Source: Paraspadella gotoi
Taxonomy: Eukaryota > Animalia > Chaetognatha
Assembly: GCA_051294375.1 (NCBI GenBank)
Contig: CM119268.1
Location: 1,881,486-1,945,485, forward strand
Length of the DNA stretch: 64,000 nucleotides
Reading direction: 5' to 3'
The translations under genes were made by a program, and so were the position numbers. Shown here piece by piece: positions 2 through 59,400 of the stretch (position 1 is its first letter; each line of letters starts with the position of its first letter). The notes beneath the pieces were generated by a model. It saw only the letters and a list, made by a program, of their open reading frames with translations. It was not told where the DNA came from and made no database searches.

Positions 2-1342
2 GGGCGTGGAGTTTATTTCATGGTCAAGATCGATGTTGACGATTGTTACCAAACGATCGATCAAAAGAAACTCTGCCGAATAATCGACGGGATCGGCGAA
101 TATCATTCGGAGATGATAATGGCCGACCAGCGTTTCGATTACGTCACGTTGACGGGGAATCGACCCAAAGTCAATCGAGCCTCGGTTACCATTTTGAAAA
201 AAGCCTCCGAAGAGTCGCCGTCGTTCGGCGAATTGGCCAATCTGGCTCATGAGCGCGACCGGTTTTACGCCGCGATCATAGAAGACCGTTGTTTCTCGGG
301 ATGCAAAGCGGAAACGTCTCAGATTTGTCGAGTTTTGAAGGATCACATTACCAACACATTGATCAAAGTAGAATCCGACTACTACTTGATGAGCAGAGGT
401 CTCGCCGCCGGCTGCGTGGTGTCCTCGTTGTGCTGCAATCTGTACTACGGAGATTTGGAGAACACTTCTCCCCCGGCCGGCGACGCGGAAAACTGTCTCG
501 TCGTTCGCGAAATCGACGACTATCTCCTAATTGCCGATCGAATGGAGACGGCCCAACGTTTCCTGACGTCGTTTTCCCGCGGATTCCCAGAATATTCGAT
601 GTACGTGAAAAGAAGTAAAACTTTAACTAACTTTCCCTTTGCCTCTCGTTGTTACGAAGCTCCCGCGCTGGACTCTTCTTGCGCGCGAGTATATCCCGCG
701 GTGGCTCGATCGAGAGATTGTCGTTCGACGGCCGATTCGTGGTTTCCCTGGTGCGGATTCCTCTTCGACGACCGCACCCTCGAGGTTCGCTTTGATTTCG
801 CTCGCTACGACTGGCGACGACCGCGGTTTATGCGACAAAGTATCTCCGTCTCTTACGGTCACCGTTGGTCCACGAAGATCCTCGTCGACGCCGTCAAGTC
901 GAACGTCAAGAACTTGGGTTGGCCGCTTTGCTTCGCTCCGCCGGTCAATTCCCGCCGCGTTCGCCTCCGCAATTTCCTAGAGTTTTTGGTTTTAGTTCTC
1001 CGAAAGCTCTACACCCTTGATCGCGAGTTACGCCCTTTTTCCGCGCGACTCCATTGCGACCCCGAGACATTCGTCGACATCGTGGTAACGATCTCCCGGG
1101 TTGCTCGCTCGCGGATAGAGGCCGCAACGCGTCATGCGTTGCGTAAGCTCGGAAAAAGCGCGAGTCGCGTGATTCGAAGGGACGCGGCGATCTGGCTCGG
1201 TTACGAGGCCGCAGCCATCGCTTTCCATCCCAATCGGGGCCAATTTGGTCGATGTCTAAAGGCAGTTCGTCACCGGCAGAGAATGTACGCGGCTTCGATG
1301 AGAAAAGATTTCCAGTTCATTCGCTCGCTTTCAGTTTTATGA
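2..1342 (+). CDS. TERT: Telomerase reverse transcriptase, 3' part (RT motifs A-E plus C-terminal extension); 5' end lies upstream of the window
   Basis: The frame is open from base 2. It contains motif A (YFMVKIDVDDCYQTI), a long IFD-like spacer, B' (RGLAAGCVVSSLCCNLYYGDLE), C (VVREIDDYLLI), D (RGFPEYSMYVKRSKTLTNF) and E (FPWCGFLFD), followed by a TERT-like helical CTE. AATAAA at about 1384. Confidence 0.9.
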   Translation, partial: GRGVYFMVKIDVDDCYQTIDQKKLCRIIDGIGEYHSEMIMADQRFDYVTLTGNRPKVNRASVTILKKASEESPSFGELANLAHERDRFYAAIIEDRCFSGCKAETSQICRVLKDHITNTLIKVESDYYLMSRGLAAGCVVSSLCCNLYYGDLENTSPPAGDAENCLVVREIDDYLLIADRMETAQRFLTSFSRGFPEYSMYVKRSKTLTNFPFASRCYEAPALDSSCARVYPAVARSRDCRSTADSWFPWCGFLFDDRTLEVRFDFARYDWRRPRFMRQSISVSYGHRWSTKILVDAVKSNVKNLGWPLCFAPPVNSRRVRLRNFLEFLVLVLRKLYTLDRELRPFSARLHCDPETFVDIVVTISRVARSRIEAATRHALRKLGKSASRVIRRDAAIWLGYEAAAIAFHPNRGQFGRCLKAVRHRQRMYAASMRKDFQFIRSLSVL

Positions 1343-26429: not shown

Positions 26430-26680
26430 TGTGGCGGTATATTCACAGTGCCTCACATCCACCATCGTTCAGCCAATCCCATTGGCTCAGAGGGGGAACG
26501 CACCATCCCAAGCGTTGCATTCCATTGACAGTCCTAACGACTTCCCTCTGCGTTGGCAATGCGAGACCGTCTTAGAGTAACCTCGCCAGTGACAGGAGGC
26601 GTCACTGAGGGTCAGAATCCCCCAAAGCCAACAGATGCCTCATCCCAATGGGCATCACAGTCAACCCGGCTGTTGCCATA
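26430..26680 (+). mobile_element. Solo-LTR-like insertion (251 bp), second copy
   Basis: TGTGGCGG...TTGCCATA flanked by the direct repeat ACAT (26426-26429 and 26681-26684); homologous to 4127-4372. Confidence 0.75.
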
Positions 26681-27390: not shown

Positions 27391-28080
27391 ATGTACTTAA
27401 TCCTCATTGCGTCGATAATTCTATCGACATGCTCTCTCGACTCTCACTCTTTTCAACTCGACCTCATCGAAGATTTAGTCTCCCCGATTTCGTCGGAATG
27501 TTCGAGAAACGATTCCGAGGACTCCAGCCTGATCGACGACGACCTCCGCCATCTCGAGTCCAGCGTCGCCTCCGTCCAAATCCCCTTGGATCTTTTCAAA
27601 GGCGTCGACGCTTCCGTCTTTCTTCCTTTAGAAAAATTAGAGATCTTGGTGCAACAGGGCAGACAGACTTTGGGTCAAGATGACTCTTTCTCTAGCCTCT
27701 CGTCCAAGTTCAGTGGTTCAGCACCAGAGGTCTCGCGTCCACCATCCTTTTGCGCCGAATTGAGAGACGGCGAAGAAGCTGGAGACGGCGAAGAAGCTGG
27801 CGACGGCGAAGAAGCTGGCGACGGCGAAGAAGCTGGCGACGGCGAAGAAGCTGGCGACGGCGAAGAAGCTGGCGACGGCGAAGACGGAGGCGACGGCGAA
27901 GACGGCGGCGGAGAAGGCGACGGCGACGGTGACTATGAATCCGGAAAAACACGGAGACCCTACGGTGGCGAAGACCCGGATGAAAGTTCAAAGGGAGGAT
28001 GTTGCCCCTCCGGCTGTACTCTATCCGCTCGGTCGTCCGTAGGTGATGGTTCTAACTCTGGGCCGACACGTCGTCGATGA
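27391..28080 (+). CDS. Orphan acidic protein with signal-peptide-like N-terminus and (GDGEEA)n repeat
   Basis: ATG in GCCATG context; hydrophobic MYLILIASIILSTCS; GC-rich, coding-like composition in an AT-rich neighbourhood; no recognisable family. Confidence 0.5.
   Translation: MYLILIASIILSTCSLDSHSFQLDLIEDLVSPISSECSRNDSEDSSLIDDDLRHLESSVASVQIPLDLFKGVDASVFLPLEKLEILVQQGRQTLGQDDSFSSLSSKFSGSAPEVSRPPSFCAELRDGEEAGDGEEAGDGEEAGDGEEAGDGEEAGDGEEAGDGEDGGDGEDGGGEGDGDGDYESGKTRRPYGGEDPDESSKGGCCPSGCTLSARSSVGDGSNSGPTRRR
27766..27930 (+). repeat. 18-bp coding minisatellite (GACGGCGAAGAAGCTGGC)n
   Basis: About six near-perfect units followed by degenerate units. Confidence 0.9.
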
Positions 28081-28490
28081 AAAGATTGTTTTTCTTAAAT
28101 CTAGAGAAAGCATTATTTACTATTTGGTATTTGGCTCCACGGTAACGGAGACAAAAAAAACTAGTATAACAGCCTGGGAATTAATTATGCGATAAGATAA
28201 AAAATGATTGATCATTGGTTGTGATTTTTAAAGGGATGATGTTAAATATTTGGTATTACTTTTTCAATACGCTTTATGTGTGTTACGTTTTTTCCTGTGT
28301 GATAACGTTTTAATTGTTTAACTTTTTCCCCAACATAAATTTGTGGTTTCACTTTCAGTAGAAAGTTCGCTTTTTGTTTTAAAAATTTATCCCTCTCTAC
28401 TAAAGCATAGCAAAAAAAATATTGAAATTAAGGAGAATCAAAATTCGAATTATTTATAATTATTTATACATATTTTTACATAGTTCTCGC

Positions 28491-28936
28491 CATAGAAAAT
28501 GTCAAAATTTTAAAATGAGTTTTTCTTATTTTTGAAAGCAGATTCGAATTCCTCAAGAAAAGTTGATAAAAGGAGATTTAACTAAGTTATTAACATTTTA
28601 GAAAATTATTTCATTAAGTGGGTCAAAATCCTGAAAAAACTATTATAATTAACTTATAATTAAATTTGACTATAAAAAATATAGTTTTTTTAATTTTTTG
28701 CTAACGTAATGAAATAATTTTTGATTAAGACTTAGAACAAAGTTTTGAAGAGAGATTTAACAACGATTTTTATTTCATAGTGAAACGGACATGTTTCGAC
28801 TCACATACGAGTCTTCTTCAGCGCCAATTCAATTCAATTAAGACTTATATTTTCTTTTATTAACTTTTTATGAGGAATTCGAATCTTCTTTCAAAACTAA
28901 GAAAAAACTTTTTTTACAATTTTGACATTTTCTATG
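28491..28936. mobile_element. Non-autonomous element with about 90-bp imperfect terminal inverted repeats, enclosing a hammerhead ribozyme (Penelope-like pLTR remnant or MITE)
   Basis: The left arm CATAGAAAATGTCAAAATT..GATTCGAATTCCTCA..AAAAGTT is the reverse complement of the right arm AACTTTT..TGAGGAATTCGAATC..AATTTTGACATTTTCTATG. No clear TSD. Confidence 0.65.
28784..28825 (-). ncRNA. Minimal type I hammerhead ribozyme (Penelope/retrozyme type)
   Basis: Minus strand: GGCG-CUGAAGA-A-GACUC-GUAUGU-GAGUC-GAAA-CAU-GUC-CGUU. It has an intact catalytic core, a 5-bp stem II, a palindromic ACAUGU stem III, a GUC cleavage triplet and a 4-bp stem I (GGCG/CGUU). Confidence 0.8.
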
Positions 28937-29180
28937 TATAAATACGGGCTAATGCGAAAATTGAGAAATAAAAAAAAACAATTTTTTTTCTTTATCAATG
29001 TTCTCTAGTACAAAACTGATTCATGATCAACTATTCGAATTTTGATCGTCAACTTTCACTACGCCTTACTCTCTACACTGCTAATAATTATTGGTCGATT
29101 TATTTAATGAAGCGTTTTACATTTGGTTTAGTTTTCTTTCCAGATAAAAACCCAATCGAATTTATGGATATCCGGTGCCA

Positions 29181-32100
29181 ATGCCGTTTCTCTCGGCTCT
29201 CCTTCCGCGCGCTCTCTCCCCCGCGCGTTGTCACGTGACCGTCGACTTGGTCCGCTCGATCTTGACACGGTCCGCGCCCGACGGCGCCCTCTATTCCACC
29301 CGCTCTTCCCTCGTCCGCCTCCGCCCTTCTCACTTCCTTCGCCGTCACTCAATCCCTCTCATCGCTTTCCGCCTCCGTTCCACGATGGTGGCGTCGCAGC
29401 CGGAAGACGCCGGCGCCGTCGCCAGCGTCTGTTCCGACGTCGTCAAGCCGGAAAACGACGCCCGCCTTTTCCGCGCCCTTCAACTGGCGAATGGCATGAA
29501 GGTGCTGCTGATCAGTGACCCGGAGACTGACAAGTCGTCGGCGGCGCTCGACGTCCACGTCGGCCACCTTTGCGACCCTTGGGAATTGCCCGGCCTGGCT
29601 CACTTCTGCGAACACATGCTTTTTCTCGGGACGGAGAAATATCCCGAAGAAAACGAATACAACAAGTTTTTACAGGTTATTTCATTGGAGGGCAAATAAC
29701 CAAAGAGTCTATAATTGAAGATCAATATCCGTCCACGTGAATCCGATTTCCATTCGCGAGATTCTGCTTCCAACAATTTTCTCTCCGTTTAAAGTCATTT
29801 AAGTCATTAATTAAAATAGATGTTATTTCCTCGCAGGAACACGGAGGATCCTCGAACGCCTTCACCTCCGCGGAGCACACCAACTACTACTTCGACGTCT
29901 CCCCCGACGCCCTCGAACCCGCCCTCGATCGCTTCGCCCAGTTCTTCCTCACGCCTCTCTTCACCCCCAGCGCCACCACGAGGGAAGTTAACGCCGTCAA
30001 TTCGGAAAACGAGAAGAACCTGCAAAACGACGCCTGGCGACTGTTTCAATTGGAAAAGTCTACGGGCAAAGAGGGTCACGACTGGACCAAGTTCGGTACG
30101 GGCAACAAGCAGACCCTGGAGACGGACCCGGAATCCCGCGGCATCCAGGTCCACAAGGCCTTGCTCGAGTTTCACGCTCGCCACTACTCGGCCAACATCA
30201 TGGGCGTGGCCGTTTTGGGTAAAGAGTCACTGGACCAACTCCAGGAAATGATCGTCCGTCTCTTCGCCGGCGTCGAAAATAAAAACGTGGAGATCAAAGA
30301 GTGGACGGAACATCCTTACGGCGAAGACCAGGTCCGCGTCAAGGGCCTCATCGTGCCCGTCAAGGACATTCGCAACCTCAACATCACCTTCCCCATTCCC
30401 GACCTGCAACAGCACTGGAGATCCAGTCCGGGTCATTATCTGGGTCACCTCATCGGGCACGAGGGGCCGGGCTCGCTCTTGTCCGAGTTGAAGCGGAGGG
30501 GATGGGTCAACAACCTCATGGGAGGAGGGAAAGGTGAGGGAAACGTGGTTCGTACAAAATAGAAAGACTACCTGGACCACAATGTAAAAAAATAACAAAA
30601 ATTGTCCCTTTTGAAATTGGACAAGATAGATAGATAAGAAATATCAAAAACGGTATTTTTTTTATTAGTGATGGGGAAAGTCGAAATGGAATTTTGACTA
30701 ACGAAATATTTTGATTCGGGAAATACATAGCTTTTTCACAAGCGAAATTATGTATCTTTTGACGACCGGATTACATGTTAAGACTTCGTATGTTTTAAAT
30801 GTTAATGTTATAAATTCGCTTTACTTTCACCTTTTCCCAGGTGGCGCCAAGGGTTTCATGTTTTTCATAGTCAACGTGGATTTGACCGAAGAGGGAATCA
30901 ATCACGTGGACGACATCGTCACCCTTGTTTTCCAATACCTCAACATGCTGCGCCAGGCAGGCCCGCAGGAATGGGTCTTCGAGGAGTGCAAAAAGCTGGG
31001 CGAGTCTTTAAACGGAACCCTGTGCGGTTTTCTTTGTGAAAACGAGAGTTATCTTCTCCTTCGTTTACTGTATCGTTTTTTTCTCTCTCTCTCCCTCTTC
31101 CAGGCGAAATGAATTTTCGGTTCAAGGACAAAGAGAAGCCCCGGTCTCTGACGTCTTCCGTGGCGGGGTCCCTCTTCGACTATCCCTTCGAACACGTCAT
31201 ATCCGGCGGTTATCTCCTCCACGAGTTCCGCCCCGACCTCGTCGACGACATCATGTCCCGCCTGACGCCTGACAACGTTCGCCTGGCCGTCATCGCGCGC
31301 CGGTTCGATTCGGTCGCCGATTCGGTCGAGCCCTGGTATGGGACGCAGTTCACAGCGGCCAAGATCTCCGACGAGGCGTTGGACACTTGGCGCGGGGCGT
31401 CGACCGACGAGAGTCTCCGGTTACCGGATCAGAACGAGTTCATCCCGACCGAATTCGGGCTCGTCGCTGCCGAGGAGAACGAGGAGACGCTGCCCCGCGT
31501 CGTTTACAACAGCCCTTACGGCCGAATGTGGTACAAGCGGGACGACAAATTCCTTCTGCCCAAGGCCGCGCTCCACTTTGAGCTGCGGAGTCCGATGGCC
31601 TACGTCGATCCTCTCGCCGTCAACCTCAACTTCCTCTTCGTCAGTCTGTTCCAGGACGCGCTCAACGAGTGGACCTACGCCGCGGAGATCGCCGGCCTCG
31701 GCTACAGTCTCGAAAATTCCATTTACGGATTGTATTTGGGGATTAGCGGTGAGATTGACATTCACCTTGAAACATTCAGTAAATCCGTACTCTTCTTTAT
31801 GAAAAAAATTTTTTCTCGCCTTTTTCCAAGGCTACAACGACAAGCAGAACATCCTTTTGGACAAGCTCGTCCACAAGATGGTCAACTTCGACGTGGACCC
31901 GAAACGATACGAAATCCTCAAGGAAAAATACAAGCGCGCCTTGGAGAACTTCAAGGCGGACCAGCCGCATCAACACGCCATCTACTTTACCTCCGTCGTG
32001 ATGGCCGAGAAGATGTGGACCAAGGAGGAGTTGCTTAGCTCTCTCGAGTCGGAAGTCACCATCGATAAATTGCGAGCCTTCATTCCGCAGTTGCTCTCTC

Positions 32101-33522
32101 GAGTTTGGGTCGAGGGAATGTCGTACGGAAACATTTCTAGTCAAGGTAAGAAAGATTAAAGCTTCGTAGGAGAGTAATTTGTGAATCATTCCGATTTTCA
32201 TCGAGTCATTCTTTTTAAATTTCATATTGTCTGTGTTATATGTCTGCTATAACTTGAATTAAACCTCACCCCCATTTCATCATCAGACGCCATCAATCAG
32301 ATGAAAACGCTTACCGAGGTTCTCAAGTGCCAAGCGTCGACCAAGCCTCTACTTCCCGAACAGCGAGGCAAATTCCGGGAAGTGCAATTGCCCGACGCCT
32401 CATCCTTCGTCTACGAACGCGTCAACGAGGTTCACCCGACCTCGAGCCTCGAGATCTACTTGCAATGCGACCTGCAAGATACGCGCGCCAACGCCCTGCT
32501 CGAGCTCTTTTGTCAGATCATCAACGAACCCTGCTTCGACGTCCTGCGCACAAAGGAGCAGCTGGGTTATATCGTATTCAGCGGGGTGCGAAGATCCAAC
32601 GGCGTGCAGGGTAAGTTGTTTTCGAACAAGAAACCAGTTAACTAAATCTAGAAACTAATTTGAAAAAAAAAAAAAATTGTCGCCTCTCAGGACTCCGCGT
32701 GATCGTTCAGAGTGACCGATCTCCGGAATATGTCGACCAACGCGTGGAGGCGTTTTTGGCAAAGGCTGGCAGGGAGTTGGAGGACGGGACAGTGACGCAG
32801 GAACAGTTCGACAATCACGTCAAGGCGCTGGCAACGAGGAGGTTGGAGAAACCGAAGAAACTCTCCTCTCAAGCTTCGAAATGGTAATGACGACGGCTGC
32901 GTCGCTCTATTTTAATCCTGATGTTATCTTACTTTTTAAAATGATTTCTTAATAATTAATAATTTCTTAAAATGATTTGTTAATACCCGAGGTGGAGCGA
33001 GATCGTTTGTCAGCAGTACAACTTTGATCGCGACGTCGTGGAGACGGACTCTTTACGCACGTTGACGATGAACGACGTCCTCTGTTTCTACAAAACCTTC
33101 ATCGCCGTCGACGCTCCTCATCGCAAGAAGATGGCGACGCACGTCGTCAGCGCCAAGGGGCCCAAACCGGACAAAAAGGAGGAGAACGAGGAATCGGTGG
33201 GCACTGGGCAGGATTTGGGCAGGATTGCAATTAATAATGATAAATTAATAATTATCCTTTGAAAAATTTTCATAATGGGAAATACGGTGCTTGAAACAAA
33301 AAAAAATTGCCCGATTGTATCTCGACATATATTTTCCATGTTAACATGATAAATATATATTTTCGTTTTTCCATCCAGCCGTCGGATTTGTGCCCGGTGC
33401 CCAAGATGACGACAACGCCGACTCAAATATCGGATCCCGTGAAATTTAAATCGAACCTCGCTCTCTTTCCTCTCGTCAAGCCGTTCATCACACTTCCGCC
33501 CATTTGCGCGTGCGATGAGTGA
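29181..33522 (+). CDS. IDE: Insulin-degrading enzyme (M16A metallopeptidase), about 9 exons
   Basis: [31 protein letters not shown] (HxxEH), [27 protein letters not shown]. First ATG at 29181, second in-frame ATG at 29385. Confidence 0.96.
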
Positions 33523-42713: not shown

Positions 42714-44532
42714 GTGCCGAATCCTAATCGCTGGTTTTAGCGTTTTGGTTGCGAGATATTCTGACGCAATATACTTCAGAAAAGCATAAATAAAGCCTAA
42801 GATTGTAATAAAAAGTAAAAAAAAACTGCTAAATAGTAAATACGTACCTCCTTACTATTTTCCAATTCTAAGACTTCAAGCTCTTATAATAGGGACCAAC
42901 TCCGGAGATAATATAAAATTTCGACTATTAGCAAAGGTTTTTTAGTTGTCTTGACTAAATATTTAAGCAATCATTTTCAAAAAAAAAAATTACAGTATAC
43001 GTCTTTATTAATACATTAAATATTACTTATCTTTTTTCACATTATATAAATTTTTTTTAGAAATCTTAAAATTTTTTGATGGATTCTGATAGAGCATAAA
43101 AAGTTAAACGAGAAATATAATGACAGTTTTTAAAAATTCTTACGTTTTCTAAGTGAAAATTTAAAAAAATGATAAAATCATTTTTTACGGTTTTTCTTAT
43201 TTTTGACTCACTAATCATGAAAATATTTAAAAAAGAATTATACTTTGTATAGACAACTTGTTATGAGCTATCTGAATCTTGTCCAAAAAATTTTTGGCCT
43301 TTCCTATTAAAAAAGAAATGTTTTGTCCATTGAAATTATACTTCAAAATGTATAAATTTTCGTTTGAGCATGTAATCATTCTAAATTTTTGACTCACCCC
43401 ATTGACTGGGGGCTACCCCTACTTATATCAATAATCGTCGCATTATCGCTTGCAAGCGGTTTTAGCCCCCTAGCGAGGATTAGCCTCGTTATGAATCGTA
43501 AACAAAAGACGCGAGTAAACAAACTTATTTCGATTCTCCCCCTGTCGGCGTCGATCGCAGTTTGGCGCGAAAGGACGTTTTTCGCCTAATTGAGGGAAAA
43601 CGAAGAAGAGACGAATTCCAGCGAAGGAACGACGGCCGACAAAGGAGGGGGGTCGATGATTGCATGCACTTGGGGTTGGAGATTTGGAGGCAAGATATGG
43701 TCAATCTCGGTTCTGGAAACGACAGGTCAGTTACGCCACGATTGTAATATCCAGTCCAAGTAAGACCGTGGCAACCTGATCTTTATCCTACTTCGCTGCA
43801 AGCCGCAAAAGTTGTCATCATTTTTTTTTACCAATGATCTTGAAAAATGTTGCCACCTTTGTCATGCTCAATAGGTTGAAGTCCTTCTGTCAAAATCGCC
43901 ACATCCGTACAGTTTCTACCCAAATGGCAATTATCCTTTCAACTTTATTAAGTAAAATAACTTCTTTTTTTTTCGTCAAAAAAAAACTTCTAATTTTCTA
44001 GGAAAGTTTGGAAGATTTTTGAAAGCGAAATGTTCTTGGACTCAGCGGGAGGAAATTCTGACTGAGAAGATATGAAACTCGAGCTCTTTCCTTAGATTCT
44101 GACGATGATGATAGTTATTAGCTATTTATTGGTGTTATTTTTTAGTATTATAATTAGATAATGTTGGCGGGGAGGAGCGGATGGAGGAGGATGATATTTT
44201 GAGGGGGGAGGGTTGGGTTGTGCGAGGGGGGCGGAGGGGGGTGTGGGGTGATCTGGGAGCACGTTTACTCACGTAAAATGCCTATTTAGATTGTTGACGT
44301 ATGTTGTTTATGAAAAGTTCTAGAAATATAGCTATATAATCTTTAAAACGATTATGATTCGTATTTTCTTTTTTTTCAATCCAACCCCTTTGTGGTAAGA
44401 TAAAAGCACCAAGTTGAAAGTTATAAATATAATTATTAAGTTAGAAACAAGTTTATGACAAAATTGTCGATATACTGTGAGTTCACCGGTCTGAGTGAAA
44501 AAACCATGAACAAAAACTCACGAAACAAATGT

Positions 44533-44729
44533 GGCCTGTAGAGGGAAGGCCTGTAGGAGGAAGGCCTGTAGGGGAAAGGCCTGTAAAGGGAAGGCCTGTA
44601 GGAGGAAGGCCTGTAGGGGAAAGGCCTGTAGAGGAAGGCCTGTAGGAGGAAGGCCTGTAGGGGAAAGGCTGTAGGAGGAAGGCTGTAGGGGAAAGGCCTG
44701 TAGAGGGAAGGCCTGTAGAGGGAAGGCCT
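44533..44729. repeat. About 15-bp minisatellite (GGCCTGTAGRRGRAA)n, about 13 units
   Basis: Directly visible tandem array without unique spacers. Confidence 0.92.
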
Positions 44730-46175
44730 CTAAAAAAAAAAGAAATCTCTAAATCGTGGGCGACTTTTTTTTTGTAATTTGAGATCCTGACGTCGGGGAG
44801 AGGGAGAGGGAGAATGTTAGAGACAGATTCAAAGGAAAAGAGGATGAGAAAAATGAAAGAAGATGAAAAAGAAAAGATTAGAAAGAGAACGAAGAATTTG
44901 GAGATCCTTTGTCGTTGTGTACTGAAAATTACAGTACTCTTTGTGTGAATATATTTTATTAACTCAACGACGTATAGTTTGTTCAGTTGAAGTTTTAATA
45001 ACGTTATTAGAAGATAATCACGCGGAGCCAACTTCCGTTTCAATTCGAAATGAAAATGTCGTATCTTGCATTATCTTATCACATTCTCACATTCTTTACC
45101 CTTTTCCACGTAACATCAAACCCTATATGCTATCTACTTTTGTAATTTTTGATTGCTTTGTTGCTACATCTCACTCTGTCTAATTATTCTTTTTTTTTTT
45201 AACTAAACTTTTTTTTTTTGTTTTAATCCAGTTTGTTCTTTTTTTTTCGATTCGCATCGAATTTCGATCTTTTTTTTTCTCCGACGATTTAGGCGTCAAA
45301 GAAAATCATCGATGCAGATTTATTTCCTCTCCGCCTCTCTTTTCTTTTTCCTTTCTTTTCTTTTTCCTTTCTTTTCTTTTTCCTTTCTTTTCTTTTTCCT
45401 TTCTCTTCTTTTTCCTTTCTTTCCATTTTCATTCTTTCATTTACCCCTAATTACTCTTAATCCCAAACTTAAAAAAGGTAATGAGTAAAAAAATAACCGA
45501 CTGGCCATAATAAAAATATATTTGTTAAACAAAGATACATTACTATTTATCCGTTATATTTGACTAATAAACGAAATACGCATTTAAACTTAATATGTAC
45601 AATTTCCCCCTCTCCTTTTAAATCATTTGATTTTCATTTCGCCTTGGAAAAAAAATCAAGTGAAACGACCTCATATTTCACGAATTCTCAAAATCTTTTA
45701 CTTTTCACTCATCGAGAAGTCGGGACGAAAAAGAAAATACTATGCCTTCTATGTTTCTTCAATTTAAGGACTTCTTTGTTACGGAAAACATTTAGTCTGG
45801 GGCCTGATTTTCCTGATTGTAGTTACTGTATTTATTAAATACTATTTAATCTAAATTGAAGAAACATAGAAGTGTCCTTTACAATATTTAACCTGTATCG
45901 ATAAGTGATGATTTTGATTTAAAATTAATTTTATTATAAAATAAAAAGGTTAGTATTCACTATCCTCACTTTAAGGATATAAATTTTTTAAAAAGATACA
46001 CGGTTTAAAGATTAATTTCGAAACAAAAATCATTTATACTAAAACGAGGGGCGCTGAAAACAGTGATGGATTACGGATTATGACGACGAAGGGCGACTAC
46101 GATTAGGAACATCGGAGATGACACGGACCGTGACGACGACGATGACAAGTCGGTGATTAACGATCGTCTTGACTG

Positions 46176-53486: not shown

Positions 53487-56400
53487 CCTCCTCAACTCTA
53501 TTCCTCATTCCGCAATCACCCTTCCTTTCTCAAAAATCAGCTGAGAGTTTCTTACCTTAAAATGTTTTATGTTCTTAGTGTTGATAACGCGGCAATCGTT
53601 GTTGTTATTGTTATTTTTATACCATCAGCTTAAAGTTAAATAGGAAACTCTCTTCCCCTTTACAATCCAACATGGCTCCAACATNNNNNNNNNNNNNNNN
53701 NNNNNNNNNNNNNNNNNNNNNNNNNNNNNNNNNNNNNNNNNNNNNNNNNNNNNNNNNNNNNNNNNNNNNNNNNNNNNNNNNNNNNNNNNNNNNNNNNNNN
53801 NNNNNNNNNNNNNNNNNNNNNNNNNNNNNNNNNNNNNNNNNNNNNNNNNNNNNNNNNNNNNNNNNNNNNNNNNNNNNNNNNNNNNNNNNNNNNNNNNNNN
53901 NNNNNNNNNNNNNNNNNTCCTTTTTTCCCTTTTTTTTCTTTCCTTTTTTCCCCCCTTTTCTTCTTTCGGGCCGAAAATAGTTCCAACCCAGAACCTGATG
54001 GCTTTTAATATCGACCTCTAGGTCTTATGAAAAAGGTCTTAGTTACCTCAAAACTATGATTGACTATTAATCAAAAACCATAGATATATTAAGTCAAAAT
54101 CGTTTTATCATAGTAGTAAAAAAAAAATAATTAAAAAGCATTATAAGTTTTATGAAAACCTTACTTAATCCTCTTCTAAAACTTCATCTTTATCGTGAAA
54201 GACTTTTCTTAACCCAGAGGTCTAACATTTTCTCACCCTCTCTATCCCTAACTCCCCGTTAACCCTTAAGAGGGTAACCATGTCATTCGAAACCCCTTTC
54301 CCCCCATTTCCCCCCCCTTTCCCCCCTTCCCCCTTACTACTCCAATAAACCCCCTTTTCTTAACCACCCGTTGGTTTTTTGTTTCAGAGAAAAACTTTGA
54401 CGGTCGAGAGAATTCCTTAGTTAGGAGGAGAAAACTACGTAGCATCCCTTAAACGGGTTTTTTTTTTTAATACTGGAAAGAATAAAAGTTAAGTTACTGC
54501 AATTAACGTGTACAATTAATTTTAGTTAAATATTTAAATAGTTAAAGTTAAATTAAATCACTTCAGTAAAACTTTTCTTCTCATTGACTAGAAAGTTTGT
54601 TAACATCAATTATTATTTCCCGAACCTGTTTTAACCTTACAGACAAATAGTTCCAAGATAGAGGCTCACACTATCACCAGGGCCTAGATACCCATCCTCC
54701 CAGAGTTCAATTAGGGCTTGTTTTTTAAATCATAATAAAAATCGTTGTTTAAAACTAAAATCAAACTCTGTCTTAAATCATGCTAAATATTTAGTATTTA
54801 CTAAGGGCTTGAAGAGTAGAGTTTTTCCCAACATATTACGGTTCCGTTCTGTCCGTTCTGTCCACGCATCTGAATAAAAACAGAAAAACAGAAAAAAACC
54901 AACAGAANNNNNNNNNNNNNNNNNNNNNNNNNCTTTCTTTTTTTTCGTTTATTTAGGTTTTTGTATTTTTTGTGTTGTTTTTTTTTTTTTTTTTTTTCTT
55001 TTCTTTTTGTTTTGTCCTTTTCTTTCTTTCTTTTTTTTGTTATTTTTTTCCTTTATTTTCTTTTTTTTTTTTTTTTTTTTTTTGTTGGTTTTTTCTTTTT
55101 TCTCTTTTTCTTTTTTTTTTTTTTCCTTCTTTTTTCTTTCTTCTTTTTCTTCTTTTCTTTTTTCTTTTTTTTCTTCTTTTTTTTCTTTTTTTTCTTTTTT
55201 CTTTCTCTTTTTCCTTTTTTTTCTTTGTTTTTTTTTCCTTTTTTTTCTTCTTTCTTTCTTTGTTTTTTTTTTTTCTTCCCTTCTCTCTTTTTCGTCCTCT
55301 TTTTTTCCTTTTCTTTTTTTTTCTTGTTCTTTTTCTTCTTCTTTGGTATTTCTTCTCTTTTCTGTTGTTTTCTTTTTCTTGTTTTTTTGCTTTTTTTTGT
55401 CTTTTTCTCGTTTTTCTTTTTTTTTTTTTTTTTTTCCTTTTTCCTTTTTTGTTTCTTTCTCTTTTTTTTGTTTTTTTTCTCCTTCTTTTTTTTTCTTTCT
55501 TCTTTCTTTTTGTTCTTCTTTTTCTTTTCTTTTTTTTTTTTTTCTCTTTCTTTTTTTTTTTCCTTTCTCTTTCTTTTTGTTTTTTCATCTTCCTTTTTCT
55601 CTTTTTTTTTTTTTTTTATTGTTTTCTTTTCTTTCTCTCTCCTTTTTCTGTCCTTTTTTTTTTCTTTCTTTTTTTTTTTGTTTTTTTCTCCTTTTTTTTT
55701 CTTTTTTTTTTTTTCCTTTTTTCTTTTCTTCTTTCCTTTTTTGGTTTTCTGCTTTCTTTTCCTTTTGTTTTTTCTTTTGTTTTTTTTCTTGTTTTTTTTT
55801 TTCTTTTTTTTTTTTCTTTTTTTTCTTTTTTTCTTCTTTTCTTTACTTTTTCTTTTTCTTCCTAATTTTCTTCTCTCTCGTTCCATCTTTCCATTTTCTA
55901 TGTCTTCTTTTTTTCTGTTCTTTTTTTTTTTTTTCTCTTCTCTTTTTTGCTCCCTCTTTCCTTTCTATCTTTTTTTTTCTTTTTCTCCAGTTCCCTTGTT
56001 TTTGCTTTTCTTTTTTTTTCCTCCTGCTTCATTTTTTTTTTTTTCTTTTTTTGTTTTCTCCTACTCTTTTTTTTTTTTGTTGTTTCCTTTCTTTTTTTCT
56101 TCTTTTTGTTATTCTTATTCGTTTTTTTTTTCTTTTTCCTCTTCTTTTACTCTTTTTTTTTTTTTTTTCTCTTTTTTTTTTTTCTTTTCCTTGGCATCCT
56201 TTTTTTTTATATTCTTCCTTTTCTTTTTTATATTTGTTTTCTTTTATCTTATTTTGTCTATTTTTTCTGTTTTTTTATCGTTGGTTTCTTTTTTTACTTT
56301 TTCTCTTTTTTTTCTCTTGTTCTCTTCTTTTTCTTCCTTTTTTTTTTTTTTTTTTTTTCTTATTTTTTTCTTTTTTTTTCTTCCTTTTTTTTTTTTTTTT

Positions 56401-59400
56401 ATTGTCTTCTTTTTTTCCTTTTTTCATTTTTTTTTTTTTTTTTCTTTCATTTCTTTTCTTCTTCTTTTTTTTCCTTTTTTTTTATTTTTTTTTTTCTTCT
56501 TTTATCTTTCTCTTTTTTTTCTGTTTTGATTTTTTTTAGTCATTTTCGTTTTTTTTCTTCATGTTTTCTTTTCTTTTTTTTTTCTTTTTCTGTTCTCTTT
56601 TTCTTTGTTTTTTTTCTCTTTATTTTCTTCTCTCTTTCTCCCTTCTTTTTTGTCGTTCGTTTTCTTGTCTGTTTTTTCTTGCATTTTTGCTTTCTCTGTT
56701 TTTTTTTTTTTCCTTCTCTGCTGCTTCTCTTACTTTGTGTCCTTTTTGTTTCTTATTTTTTTTGTTGGTTTTTCTTTTCTTTTTTCTTTTTTTTTTAGTA
56801 CGCCCTCTTTTTCTATTTTCTTTTTTGCCTTTCGTCTCTGCCTTCTTTTCTTTTTTTCTCTTTACTCTCCTATTCCTCCTTTCGATATCCCCCCCATCAT
56901 ATCCCAACTCTCCTATATTCCTCGGATTTTTCTCTTCTCTCTCCTCCTCCTATTCCATCCTCCTCCCCTCATCCAACCACGCGGCATCTCTTTCTTTTCT
57001 CGACCCACCAGTTAAGTCGCCTCCTCGAGGTTCATCTCGATTTCTCGTTACACACTACCCCCCAAACGATACATCGTTTGCTGTCCTCTCCCTCCACAGC
57101 GATCCTTTCCTTTTCCTTTCTCCTCTCCTTTGACATTTTGACCCCGGGACATGACAGTCCTCTGGACCCAAATGTCAGCTCACCCAAAGAGCCATACCCG
57201 ACCGCACACAAAGGAACAAGCCAAATCGCCTCCTAGAACATCCTGCCCGAAATGCGCCACCAGAGCGCCCGACGCGTTGATGCCCGACCGCGCATGGCCT
57301 GACCGTTTGGCTCAATTTCACCGCTTAAACTGTACCCTTCCCACCTTTCCTTTCCCCCTTTAAAAAATGGGCGCCCAACCTTGATTAATCTTCGCGTCCC
57401 CTCCCTCTCCGACAGCGACATCTTAGGGTCTATGTGATTAAATTGGTAAAACCAATTATAACAAATAGTTCAGTTCAAACTTAACGGAAGATGATAGAGC
57501 TATGCTTGACGCTTTGACAATCGGACAGCTTACGAATATATGAATTGTTATTATTGTGCTTTCCTTACTCTCCCTCTTCCCCATTTTCTCACCCCCCCTC
57601 CAAATCTTCACCCCCCCCATGACATTAAAGTTCCTTCCCTACGCTGAGGTTTCGTTTGACACAATCTGCTGGTGATATTTTTTTTTCGGTTCGCTGAGGG
57701 CGGTGTCCTCCCTGCCCCTCCTCTCTTCGCCTCCATTGCCTCCTCCCAAACCTTCTGTCCCCGGTTCTTCGCCCCACCAGAGGCCCTGCCCTTTTTTTGC
57801 TCTGCGCCCCATGCTTTGATTCCCCCAAGCGCTCGCGTGCTAACCTGATGATCATCGAGTGTCTACCGTAGCCGTCTATTATATTAAGCTCAGCCAATTT
57901 CCTCCCCGCCCTCTACTCTTCTCAGTTCCCCTTCCCTTCCGATCGCCCAATCGTAGCCAAACACTCCTTAACCCTCGAAAATCAATTCAGGCCGATTTCC
58001 ATACTTCAAAATATGATATTAAATGTTTTATAACTTTCCAAAATCGAATACGCCATAATAACTAGTTTTAACTACTCGCGCTTGTTTTAATACTTCAGCT
58101 CTGAGACATGGTCCACACAATCTTTCTAGAATTCATGAAATGATGTATATTTATATAATATTCGAAAACGCCGCTGGTCTTGGTTTGAAAATTGCTATAA
58201 TTAATATTGTCCCTGATAAAAACTACAATCTCTTATTTTCTCTCCACAAATCCACACGCCCCTATATGTTTCCTCTCATCCTCTTCCACACCCCGGGTCC
58301 CACATCATTAGCCCCCCCCTTCCCGGACCCCATCTTCTCGTACTTCTTCGAATTCCAAAATCACAAATATACTTCTTAGAGATCCGTGTTTTAAAACCGT
58401 GAGAGATCGAAATTATTTATATCTCTTCGTCGATGAAAAGCGAGCCTCACCTCGCGCTTGCTCAGGAGATGAGAGATGAGACGAGAAGGGATGAGAGAGA
58501 GAGACAGTGGTTCGGGATGGTGAGAATGAATGATGAGAGAGATTGAGAGAGGGAGAGAGAGAGAGGACCCTCCTCGAACTCTATTCCTCAATTTCGTCAA
58601 TCACTCCCTTCCTTTCCTCAAAACGCTGAAGAGGTTCTACCTTAAAATGTTAATCAGTTGTGGTATCGCCTCTGCATTTTTAGGACATGTTGGGATAACG
58701 CGGCAAGTCGTCTGTTGTTACTTGTTATTCTCTGCACTGGTTGATTGCCATCACTTAAAGTTTAAATAGGAATATCTCTCTCTCCCCCTTTACGGAATCC
58801 AACATAGCGCCATCTGAGAAACTCTACCCAACTAACCCTCCCCCGCAAAACCCTGAAAATCCGCTGAACCCCCTACGGGATCCTGTCATTCGAAATCTCC
58901 CCCGCCATCTTCTTCGAGTCCCAGGGGTTCTTCCCCCCCGCCTCCGCACTCGATGTCTCCCCCGGGTCTGTCACGCCCCCGTTTCATTCTCACTGCAGCT
59001 CCTTTCCCTTGCTTTTCCCTTTTCTTTTCGCTTTCCTTATTTTTCCCCTTCTTTCTTCTTTCCGGCCGAATGATAGTTCCACCAGAGACCTGATGGCTCC
59101 TTTTAATAATATCCGAACGCTCCTTTTCTCGGTCTTGTGAAAAAAGTGCTTGAAGTCTACCTCAAAACTTACTTGATGACTATTAGACTCACTGAAACCA
59201 CTAGATTGTATATTAAGTTTCCCAAATTCGTCTTTTATCATAGTAGTAAAAAAAATAATTAAATAAGCATTATAGTTTTTATGAAAACCTCCCACTTACT
59301 CCTTCCTCTAAACTTCATCTTTATCGTTGAAGACCTTTTCTTAACCCAGAGGTCTATACATTTTCCACCGTTCTCATCCCTAACTCCCCGTTTAACCCCT

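What the first reader, a model, noticed from the sequence alone, without database searches (positions are those of the whole stretch)
28784..28825. Hidden hammerhead ribozyme antisense to the gene cluster
Seen on the minus strand: CUGAAGA core, stem II GACUC/GAGUC, GAAA, palindromic ACAUGU, GUC triplet (predicted cut between 28788 and 28787) and stem I GGCG/CGUU. Known: minimal type I hammerheads with a palindromic stem III mark Penelope-like element pLTRs and retrozymes, and cleave best as dimers. Inference: its antisense orientation means it would not cut a + strand polycistronic transcript but could cut antisense RNA from a promoter upstream of IDE.
Basis: partly seen in the sequence, partly recalled or inferred. 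Interest (0 to 1): 0.7.

Follow-up and report, generated by a model that had tools for sequence, protein, structure and literature searches.

The report
Penelope hammerhead scrap inside another transposon
The self-cutting RNA motif is really in the sequence, but it sits in a 100-base repeat that has many copies in this animal's DNA and lies inside a second repeat, so it is likely an ordinary leftover end of a Penelope-like jumping gene rather than a device that regulates the neighbouring genes.

Summary
The motif is there as described: minus strand, 28825-28784, predicted cut 28788/28787. It is the window's only descriptor hit; 0 of 200 shuffles give a strict hit. Rfam has no hammerhead hit. 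Its build matches the published minimal hammerheads of Penelope-like elements (PLEs).

It lies in a ~103-bp repeat unit (28732-28834) flanked by an 11-bp duplication. That unit sits inside a 668-bp hAT-like MITE with its own 8-bp duplication. Public contigs of the same organism show the MITE without the insert, many other copies of the unit, a nearly invariant core with a variable loop II, and an optional AC-rich 3' extension like the PLE 'tail'.

Best reading: a 5'-truncated PLE end, inserted by target-primed reverse transcription and now passive. No PLE protein could be linked to it. Nothing supports a local role: one copy's orientation is a coin toss, the active fold is not the predicted lowest-energy fold, and antisense transcription was not shown. 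New member of a known kind; low interest.

The parts
28784..28825 (-). Minimal type I hammerhead motif (PLE type); predicted cut between 28788 and 28787
   Evidence: Sequence; descriptor and shuffles; background control
28814..28814 (-). Extra unpaired A between core A9 and G10.1
   Evidence: listed as a conserved trait of PLE minimal hammerheads in PMC4209133
28789..28794 (-). 6-nt palindrome in place of stem III; pairs only between two molecules (-4.6 kcal/mol)
28732..28834 (-). ~103-bp repeat unit shared with many other genomic copies: 9 nt before stem I, the ribozyme, 56 nt after the cut; likely a 5'-truncated PLE 3' end
   Evidence: depth edges and loose ends at 28732 and 28834; X2 record 2 and X6 record 17 cover 28732-28833 with 7 and 3 other letters; distances
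28724..28734 (+). 11-bp target-site duplication, left copy; its last 3 nt overlap the unit's 3' end
   Evidence: this 11-mer occurs only twice in the window; 0 of 2000 shuffles; empty-site joint
28837..28847 (+). 11-bp target-site duplication, right copy
28401..29068 (.). 668-bp AT-rich (GC 0.24) non-autonomous hAT-like MITE that hosts the insert; ends TAAAG and TAAGG (YARNG); internal inverted arms 28491-28581 and 28845-28936, 87% alike
   Evidence: repeat depth from 28402 to about 29085 and 32 loose ends at 29068 in X1
28393..28400 (+). 8-bp target-site duplication of the MITE, left copy
   Evidence: 22 of 2000 shuffles give an 8-mer repeat this near both ends
29069..29076 (+). 8-bp target-site duplication of the MITE, right copy
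27391..28080 (+). Upstream neighbour: orphan acidic ORF, 229 aa, codon style like the host genes; gene status unproven
   Evidence: no Pfam hit; no usable Atlas hit
29170..29385 (+). CpG-rich, promoter-like stretch (GC 0.65, CpG observed/expected 1.6) before the likely IDE start codon; an AG acceptor at 29143 lies 67 nt after the MITE's right duplication
29385..32645 (+). Insulin-degrading enzyme-like (M16 peptidase) gene, exons with Pfam hits; 3' end not mapped

Best explanation
The motif is a minimal hammerhead inside a ~103-bp multi-copy repeat unit that is likely the 5'-truncated 3' end of a Penelope-like retroelement, inserted into a hAT-like MITE and likely passive at this site. Shown: the motif, the unit's ends, the two nested duplications, MITE copies without the insert, and many other copies of the unit. 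Inferred mechanism: a PLE endonuclease nicked the AT-rich MITE, and the nicked end (3 nt match the RNA) primed reverse transcription 56 nt downstream of the cut site. Copying stopped 9-11 nt past stem I, and repair left the 11-bp duplication. In the parent element the ribozyme would cut weakly, as a dimer through the palindrome and perhaps with help from the element's protein. Here it has no promoter or partner of its own, and on the minus strand it cannot cut plus-strand RNA.
For: Anatomy matches PMC4209133 on five points: helix I of 4-5 bp, long helix II, extra base between 9 and 10.1, G10.1-C11.1, palindromic 15.2-16.2 and loop 3; that paper found most such motifs as single scattered copies, probably truncated PLEs. 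Empty site: joint 28723->28837, 113 skipped, 11 letters fitting both sides, 3 contigs in X4; joint 28722->28836 in 1 contig each of X1 and X4. The right junction is at single-copy depth (X4 185, X2 162), against 1,400-2,800 times more over the motif in X1, X2 and X4 (rough, the tool says this is no copy number). Of 17 substitution rows, 9 fall in the tail and 4 in loop II; 2 fall in stems and keep the pair as G-U; 2 fall in the core or palindrome. Common 3' end at 28732: unrelated AT-rich flanks in 9 X2 contigs, and a shared AC-rich extension in 6 X4, 3 X9 and 1 X5 contigs, like the optional 30-40 bp PLE tail and AC-rich start sites (PMC8557442; PMC11167929). The target starts with ATT, the cut motif preferred by the anole PLE. 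The three core or stem changes seen at 1% or more are all CpG transitions, as expected for decay.
Against: No PLE reverse transcriptase or GIY-YIG ORF was found in the window (the RT at 2-1342 is telomerase), and no genome was available to link one. No Rfam hit. The depth ratio is only 2-8 in X5 and 6-12 in X9, libraries of unknown type. Several contigs cover almost exactly the same 102 nt, which also fits a discrete short element. The shared letters beyond 28834 in other copies resemble this copy's target, so they may reflect target preference rather than a longer parent. Clear duplications are not a general PLE trait in what I read.
Confidence: 0.82

Rival explanations
1. The unit is a discrete, non-autonomous ~100-nt hammerhead SINE or micro-retrozyme that a PLE moves in trans, with fixed ends, rather than random truncations of a long element.
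For: X2 record 2 and X6 record 17 cover 28732-28833 at other loci; the family is very uniform (listed substitutions mostly 0.3-4% of depth in X4); an 11-bp duplication; metazoan retrozymes can have duplications longer than 4 bp (PMC7229834).
Against: No tandem copy within 1 kb, no Pol III A or B box, no tRNA head. The ribozyme is minimal, not the canonical type of retrozymes. The unit's ends do not fall at the cut site. Loose ends behind 28834 in X4 (7), X2 (6) and X6 (3 contigs) share letters, so some copies may run on upstream. The 28834 edge is where the window's own copy ends, so it is expected under either reading.
Confidence: 0.11
2. One reading: the ribozyme has been kept here to cut antisense RNA from a promoter upstream of IDE and so protect the plus-strand gene cluster.
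For: All Pfam-recognised genes from 1 to 38.9 kb are on the plus strand, and 0 of 33 minus-strand ORFs hit Pfam. A CpG-rich stretch before IDE could fire both ways. This copy keeps every core base.
Against: The motif is cargo of a young nested insertion. An intact core is expected in a family with only a few percent divergence. In the monomer, C17 and C1.1 are predicted to pair with G28824 and G28825 (probability 0.95 each). The double hammerhead (-17.2 kcal/mol) loses to another dimer fold (-25.2). A single S. mansoni motif showed no cleavage; the anole motif needed protein, and no RNA-seq reads ended at its cut site.
Confidence: 0.05
3. Chance motif in AT-rich intergenic DNA.
For: No Rfam hit; folding z-scores near zero; the loose descriptor hits 40 of 200 shuffles.
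Against: Strict descriptor 0 of 200; 0 of 68 background matches have both stems; the motif sits in a repeat family with a conserved core and variable loop II; the same core, stem II and palindrome occur in an unrelated metagenome contig, L001.
Confidence: 0.02

Closest known systems
Minimal hammerheads (min-HHR) in the pseudo-LTRs of metazoan Penelope-like elements (Cervera and De la Pena 2014, PMC4209133; parts 1-2 of 4 read)
   Same: Type I topology, 4-bp helix I, extra base between 9 and 10.1, G10.1-C11.1, short palindromic helix III, scattered single copies, dimer-type build.
   Different: Helix II is 5-6 bp against 7-8 bp in S. mansoni; no linked PLE ORF shown; host lineage not among those I read about.
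Poseidon element of Anolis carolinensis, PAc (Frangieh et al. 2024, PMC11167929; parts 1-2 of 4 read)
   Same: AT-rich target with ATT; element end a short way downstream of the ribozyme; optional AC-rich extension.
   Different: There the ORF starts at stem II and reverse transcription starts 111-118 nt into the ORF, with the cut 26 nt after the start codon; here the end is 56 nt after the cut and no ORF is evident. PAc priming needs no homology; here 3 nt match.
Metazoan non-LTR retrozymes (Cervera and De la Pena 2020, PMC7229834; passages read)
   Same: Type I hammerhead, low GC, duplication longer than 4 bp, non-coding.
   Different: Retrozymes are 150-450 bp tandem repeats with canonical hammerheads; this unit is ~103 bp, single, with a minimal hammerhead.
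Non-autonomous hAT elements (PMC3014272; passages read), for the host repeat
   Same: 8-bp duplication, YARNG ends, a few hundred bp, many copies.
   Different: Terminal repeats are imperfect in this copy; no autonomous partner identified.

Membership tests
Type I hammerhead ribozyme | Core CUGANGA, GAAA and NUH in the right order | tested here: met
   all core bases present, GUC triplet
Type I hammerhead ribozyme | Stem II closed by G10.1-C11.1 | tested here: met
   5 Watson-Crick pairs, pairing probability 1.0
Type I hammerhead ribozyme | Stem I can form and is open-ended | tested here: inconclusive
   4 bp possible (2 are G-U), but a shifted register is preferred in the predicted ensemble
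Type I hammerhead ribozyme | Match to an Rfam hammerhead model | tested here: not met
   My inference: the curated models expect longer stems I and III; not checked
Type I hammerhead ribozyme | Self-cleavage | not testable with these tools
   Needs an in vitro assay
PLE minimal hammerhead | Extra base between 9 and 10.1; palindromic 15.2-16.2 and loop 3; helix I of 4-5 bp | tested here: met
   against PMC4209133
PLE minimal hammerhead | Dispersed family with conserved core and variable loop or stems | tested here: met
   tables 2, 3, 7; a second stem II type shows as loose ends at 28798 in all 4 runs, its compensating 5' strand visible only in a low-agreement X9 consensus (4 contigs, 0.65)
Penelope-like element | RT plus GIY-YIG ORF linked to the motif | not testable with these tools
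   None in the window; no genome held; laid contigs are not returned as sequence
Penelope-like element | Optional 30-40 bp tail at the 3' end | tested here: inconclusive
   Shared AC-rich extension beyond 28732 in 6 X4, 3 X9 and 1 X5 contigs, absent from the window copy; full length not seen
Penelope-like element | Tandem or inverted pseudo-LTR arrangement | tested here: not met
   No second copy nearby; expected for a truncated end. The flanking inverted arms belong to the MITE
Metazoan non-LTR retrozyme | Tandem 150-450 bp units | tested here: not met
   Single 103-bp unit; best local match in 1 kb either side scores 19-22
Metazoan non-LTR retrozyme | Canonical hammerhead with 6-bp helix I and loop 1-loop 2 contacts | tested here: not met
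   Minimal type; loop II varies among copies
Metazoan non-LTR retrozyme | Abundant circular RNA | not testable with these tools
   Only contigs available
Hammerhead SINE with its own promoter (Schistosoma type) | Promoter ahead of the ribozyme (tRNA-like A and B boxes, recalled) | tested here: not met
   No boxes, no tRNA, only 9 nt upstream of stem I
hAT MITE (host repeat) | 8-bp duplication and YARNG ends | tested here: met
   against PMC3014272; right end agrees with loose ends at 29068
hAT MITE (host repeat) | Autonomous transposase partner with the same ends | not testable with these tools
   No genome held

The most novel reading that the evidence does not exclude
A ~100-nt hammerhead micro-element with fixed ends has been amplified to a thousand or more near-identical copies in an animal with operon-like gene clusters, and intact copies survive inside polycistronic units only in antisense orientation because sense copies cut the precursor RNA. 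The orientation bias would be genomic evidence that PLE minimal hammerheads cleave in vivo.
Probability: 0.1. Interest if true: 0.55.

Novelty: new member of a known kind. Interest (0 to 1): 0.17.

Why it matters
As a single locus it matters little: thousands of such motifs per animal genome are already described (PMC4209133). What the family could offer is a test. Whether PLE hammerheads cut in vivo is open (PMC8557442 calls their function unclear; PMC11167929 found no reads ending at the cut). A young, uniform, high-copy family in a genome with long co-oriented gene clusters allows a direct comparison of orientation for intact against core-mutated copies inside transcription units. The nested insertion also gives clean ends and an 11-bp duplication for a PLE-type insertion.

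Tried and rejected
Rfam at gathering score (whole window) and at E<=10 (27500-30000): no hammerhead model. No genome is held, so no genome-wide count or orientation test. The inverted repeats around the motif first looked like an inverted pseudo-LTR; rejected, they are arms of the host MITE. The RT ORF at 2-1342 looked like a possible PLE; it is telomerase (human TERT, E 1.3e-25). Scans of viral and prokaryotic collections for relatives next to a PLE ORF gave 68 matches, none with both stems. The one metagenome hit, L001, has the same core, stem II and palindrome after a long inverted repeat, but no stem I pairing, and I saw no PLE-like ORF by eye; it was not scanned with Pfam. Expression: no RNA holder listed on record; X9 is only guessed to be RNA, and contigs give no strand, so nothing is concluded. 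One X5 contig has 11 A's behind 29150; library type unknown, not used. Copies starting at the cut site: no depth step at 28787/28788 and no such loose end among the 24 rows shown, but 163 rows were not shown. Host taxon: the SDR search gave two unnamed relatives at 66-67%; named single-domain hits reach 58% at most; the best-scoring named full-length RPS25 hit is a chaetognath, but only 76% against 68-73% for other phyla in the alignment, so the host is not established. The orphan ORF gave no usable Atlas hit, which shows nothing. Lunse et al. (PMC5785218) is not held; I saw only its citation in a review. Not in print as far as searched: 'chaetognath' + 'hammerhead' gave 4 papers, unrelated by title and abstract start; PMC12460157 has 0 occurrences of 'penelope' or 'ribozyme' in its main text (supplements not opened, and repeat tables there may bear on this); a five-term search for hammerheads in operons gave 2 papers, seen as listings only.

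Full report
1. The observation. One base was overlooked, an unpaired A at 28814 between A9 and G10.1. My descriptor found this as the only hit on either strand of the window. Shuffled windows gave a loose hit in 40 of 200 and a strict hit in 0 of 200; the strict limits were chosen after seeing the motif. As an outside control, 68 matches to the core letters in viral and prokaryotic collections had no stem II of 5 bp or more, and only one had a 4-bp stem I. Rfam gave nothing and the folding energy is unremarkable.

2. Setting. The window is from an animal. Pfam and PDB hits show telomerase RT, prolyl oligopeptidase, an AMP-binding enzyme, RPS25, a LOTUS/Tudor protein, a CD20-like protein, EF-Ts, NudC, a DEAD_2 helicase, a zinc-finger protein, a short-chain dehydrogenase, IDE, NOG1 and a histone-fold protein, all on the plus strand up to 38.9 kb; 24 of 36 ORFs sent had a hit. 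None of 33 minus-strand ORFs hit Pfam. The cluster is real; that it is polycistronic is an inference. The host is not established: a chaetognath is the best-scoring named full-length RPS25 hit, by a small margin. Chaetognaths have trans-spliced operons and methylate transposons (PMC12460157, passages), which would fit but is background only.

3. Nested anatomy. The motif lies in AT-rich DNA between an orphan ORF (27391-28080) and IDE (likely start 29385). Two pairs of direct repeats bracket it. An 8-mer at 28393-28400 and 29069-29076 flanks a 668-bp element whose ends fit YARNG; 8-bp duplications and YARNG ends define hAT elements (PMC3014272, passages). An 11-mer at 28724-28734 and 28837-28847, found nowhere else in the window, flanks 102 bp that contain the ribozyme. 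In shuffles these arose 22 and 0 times in 2000. Public contigs of the same organism confirm both layers (4 of 11 listed runs laid). Depth rises from single-copy level at about 28402 and falls after about 29085, with 32 loose ends at 29068 in X1. A joint 28723->28837 skips 113 bases with 11 letters fitting both sides (3 contigs in X4), and an equivalent joint occurs in one contig each of X1 and X4. These are most simply other MITE copies without the insert; an empty allele cannot be excluded. The right junction of the insert is at single-copy depth, so the composite was not amplified.

4. The family. Laying contigs on 28712-28860 (X4, X2, X9, X6) gives sharp edges at 28732 and 28834. Two contigs from other loci cover 28732-28833 with 7 and 3 other letters. 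Summed depth over the motif is 1,400-2,800 times the flank in X1, X2 and X4, but only 2-12 times in X5 and X9. The tool warns that this is no copy number, so I say only 'many, perhaps a thousand or more'. Of 17 substitution rows, 9 lie in the tail after stem I and 4 in loop II. Two lie in stems and keep a G-U pair, one hits G12 (1.5% in X4), and one hits the palindrome (1 contig per run, in 3 of 4 runs). The three stem or core changes at 1% or more are CpG transitions, at 3 of the unit's 5 CpG sites. Deletions of 6-7 nt across the stem I 3' strand occur at about 1-2% of depth each in X4 and X2. Loose ends at 28802 point to variable loop II. Loose ends at 28798 in all four runs point to a second stem II type; its compensating strand is visible only in one low-agreement consensus. 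At the 3' end (28732), 9 X2 contigs go into unrelated AT-rich DNA, while 6 X4, 3 X9 and 1 X5 contigs share an AC-rich extension. At the 5' end (28834), 7, 6 and 3 contigs share letters, meaning either a longer parent or similar targets. Only the best-supported rows were shown, and alignment at 80% or more favours similar copies.

5. Mechanism. Cervera and De la Pena (PMC4209133, parts 1-2 of 4) describe this build in PLE pseudo-LTRs: short helix I, extra base before 10.1, G10.1-C11.1, palindromic helix III, most copies single and probably truncated, no cleavage as a monomer and low cleavage as a dimer. PLE hammerheads lie near the 3' end, and an optional 30-40 bp tail is often present (PMC8557442, passages). 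The anole PLE nicks AT-rich DNA at ATT, starts reverse transcription at AC-rich sites downstream of the ribozyme, and its ribozyme cuts only with the protein present (PMC11167929, parts 1-2 of 4). The window's unit fits: ATT-starting AT-rich target, end 56 nt after the cut, AC-rich extension in some copies. I infer a target-primed insertion truncated just past stem I. The link to a PLE protein is not shown.

6. Would it cut here? Predicted folding says poorly. In the monomer, C17 and C1.1 pair with the two G's of the stem I 5' strand (0.95 each). The double hammerhead scores -17.2 kcal/mol against -25.2 for the best dimer fold; with 9 more flanking bases, -18.6 against -33.1. These models ignore tertiary contacts and protein help. 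There is no second copy nearby; a partner would have to come from another transcript. A CpG-rich stretch at 29170-29385 could be an IDE promoter and could fire backwards. An AG acceptor 67 nt after the MITE could instead mean the MITE landed in a short intercistronic gap. I could not decide between these, and no stranded RNA data were available. Either way one insertion has even odds of either orientation.

7. Comparison and novelty. It works like, and by sequence features belongs to, the PLE minimal hammerheads. Membership of a PLE proper is likely but untested for lack of a linked ORF. It fails the tests for tandem retrozymes and for promoter-bearing hammerhead SINEs. Earlier notes of this scan report the same kind in other animal genomes (unchecked AI notes, not counted as support); none covers this genome or sequence. 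Verdict: real motif, new member of a known kind, passive transposon cargo (0.82); discrete micro-element (0.11); local antisense-cutting role (0.05); chance (0.02). Interest 0.17.

Noticed in passing
window 2-1342 (+): C-terminal exon of telomerase reverse transcriptase (human TERT, E 1.3e-25) at the head of a run of 14 recognised co-oriented genes reaching 38.9 kb.
   Followed up: partly
window 26430-26680 (+) and 4372-4127 (-): Two copies (84% alike) of a ~250-bp repeat, each starting TGTGGCG, ending TGCCATA and flanked by its own 4-bp duplication; looks like solo LTRs of an LTR retrotransposon (my inference), each downstream of a gene.
   Followed up: partly
window 27391-28080 (+): Orphan 229-aa acidic ORF with a hydrophobic start and an 18-bp tandem repeat encoding GDGEEA; host-like codon use; no Pfam or Atlas hit.
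   Followed up: partly
window 29170-29385 (+): CpG-rich stretch with a palindromic E-box-like 10-mer ahead of IDE; possible internal promoter in the gene cluster.
   Followed up: partly
window 28401-29068: The host hAT-like MITE is itself a high-copy family with long internal inverted arms and many indel variants.
   Followed up: partly
L001 2321-2476: Metagenome contig with the same core, stem II and palindrome right after a near-perfect inverted repeat with arms of about 60 bp, as in inverted PLE ends; stem I does not pair.
   Followed up: partly
window 29150: One X5 contig has 11 A's behind this position; could be a plus-strand 3' end or internal priming; library type unknown.
   Followed up: no
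window 44521-44747 and about 54900-57100: A 15-bp tandem array, and a long strand-biased T-rich stretch beside N gaps that may be low-quality assembly.
   Followed up: no
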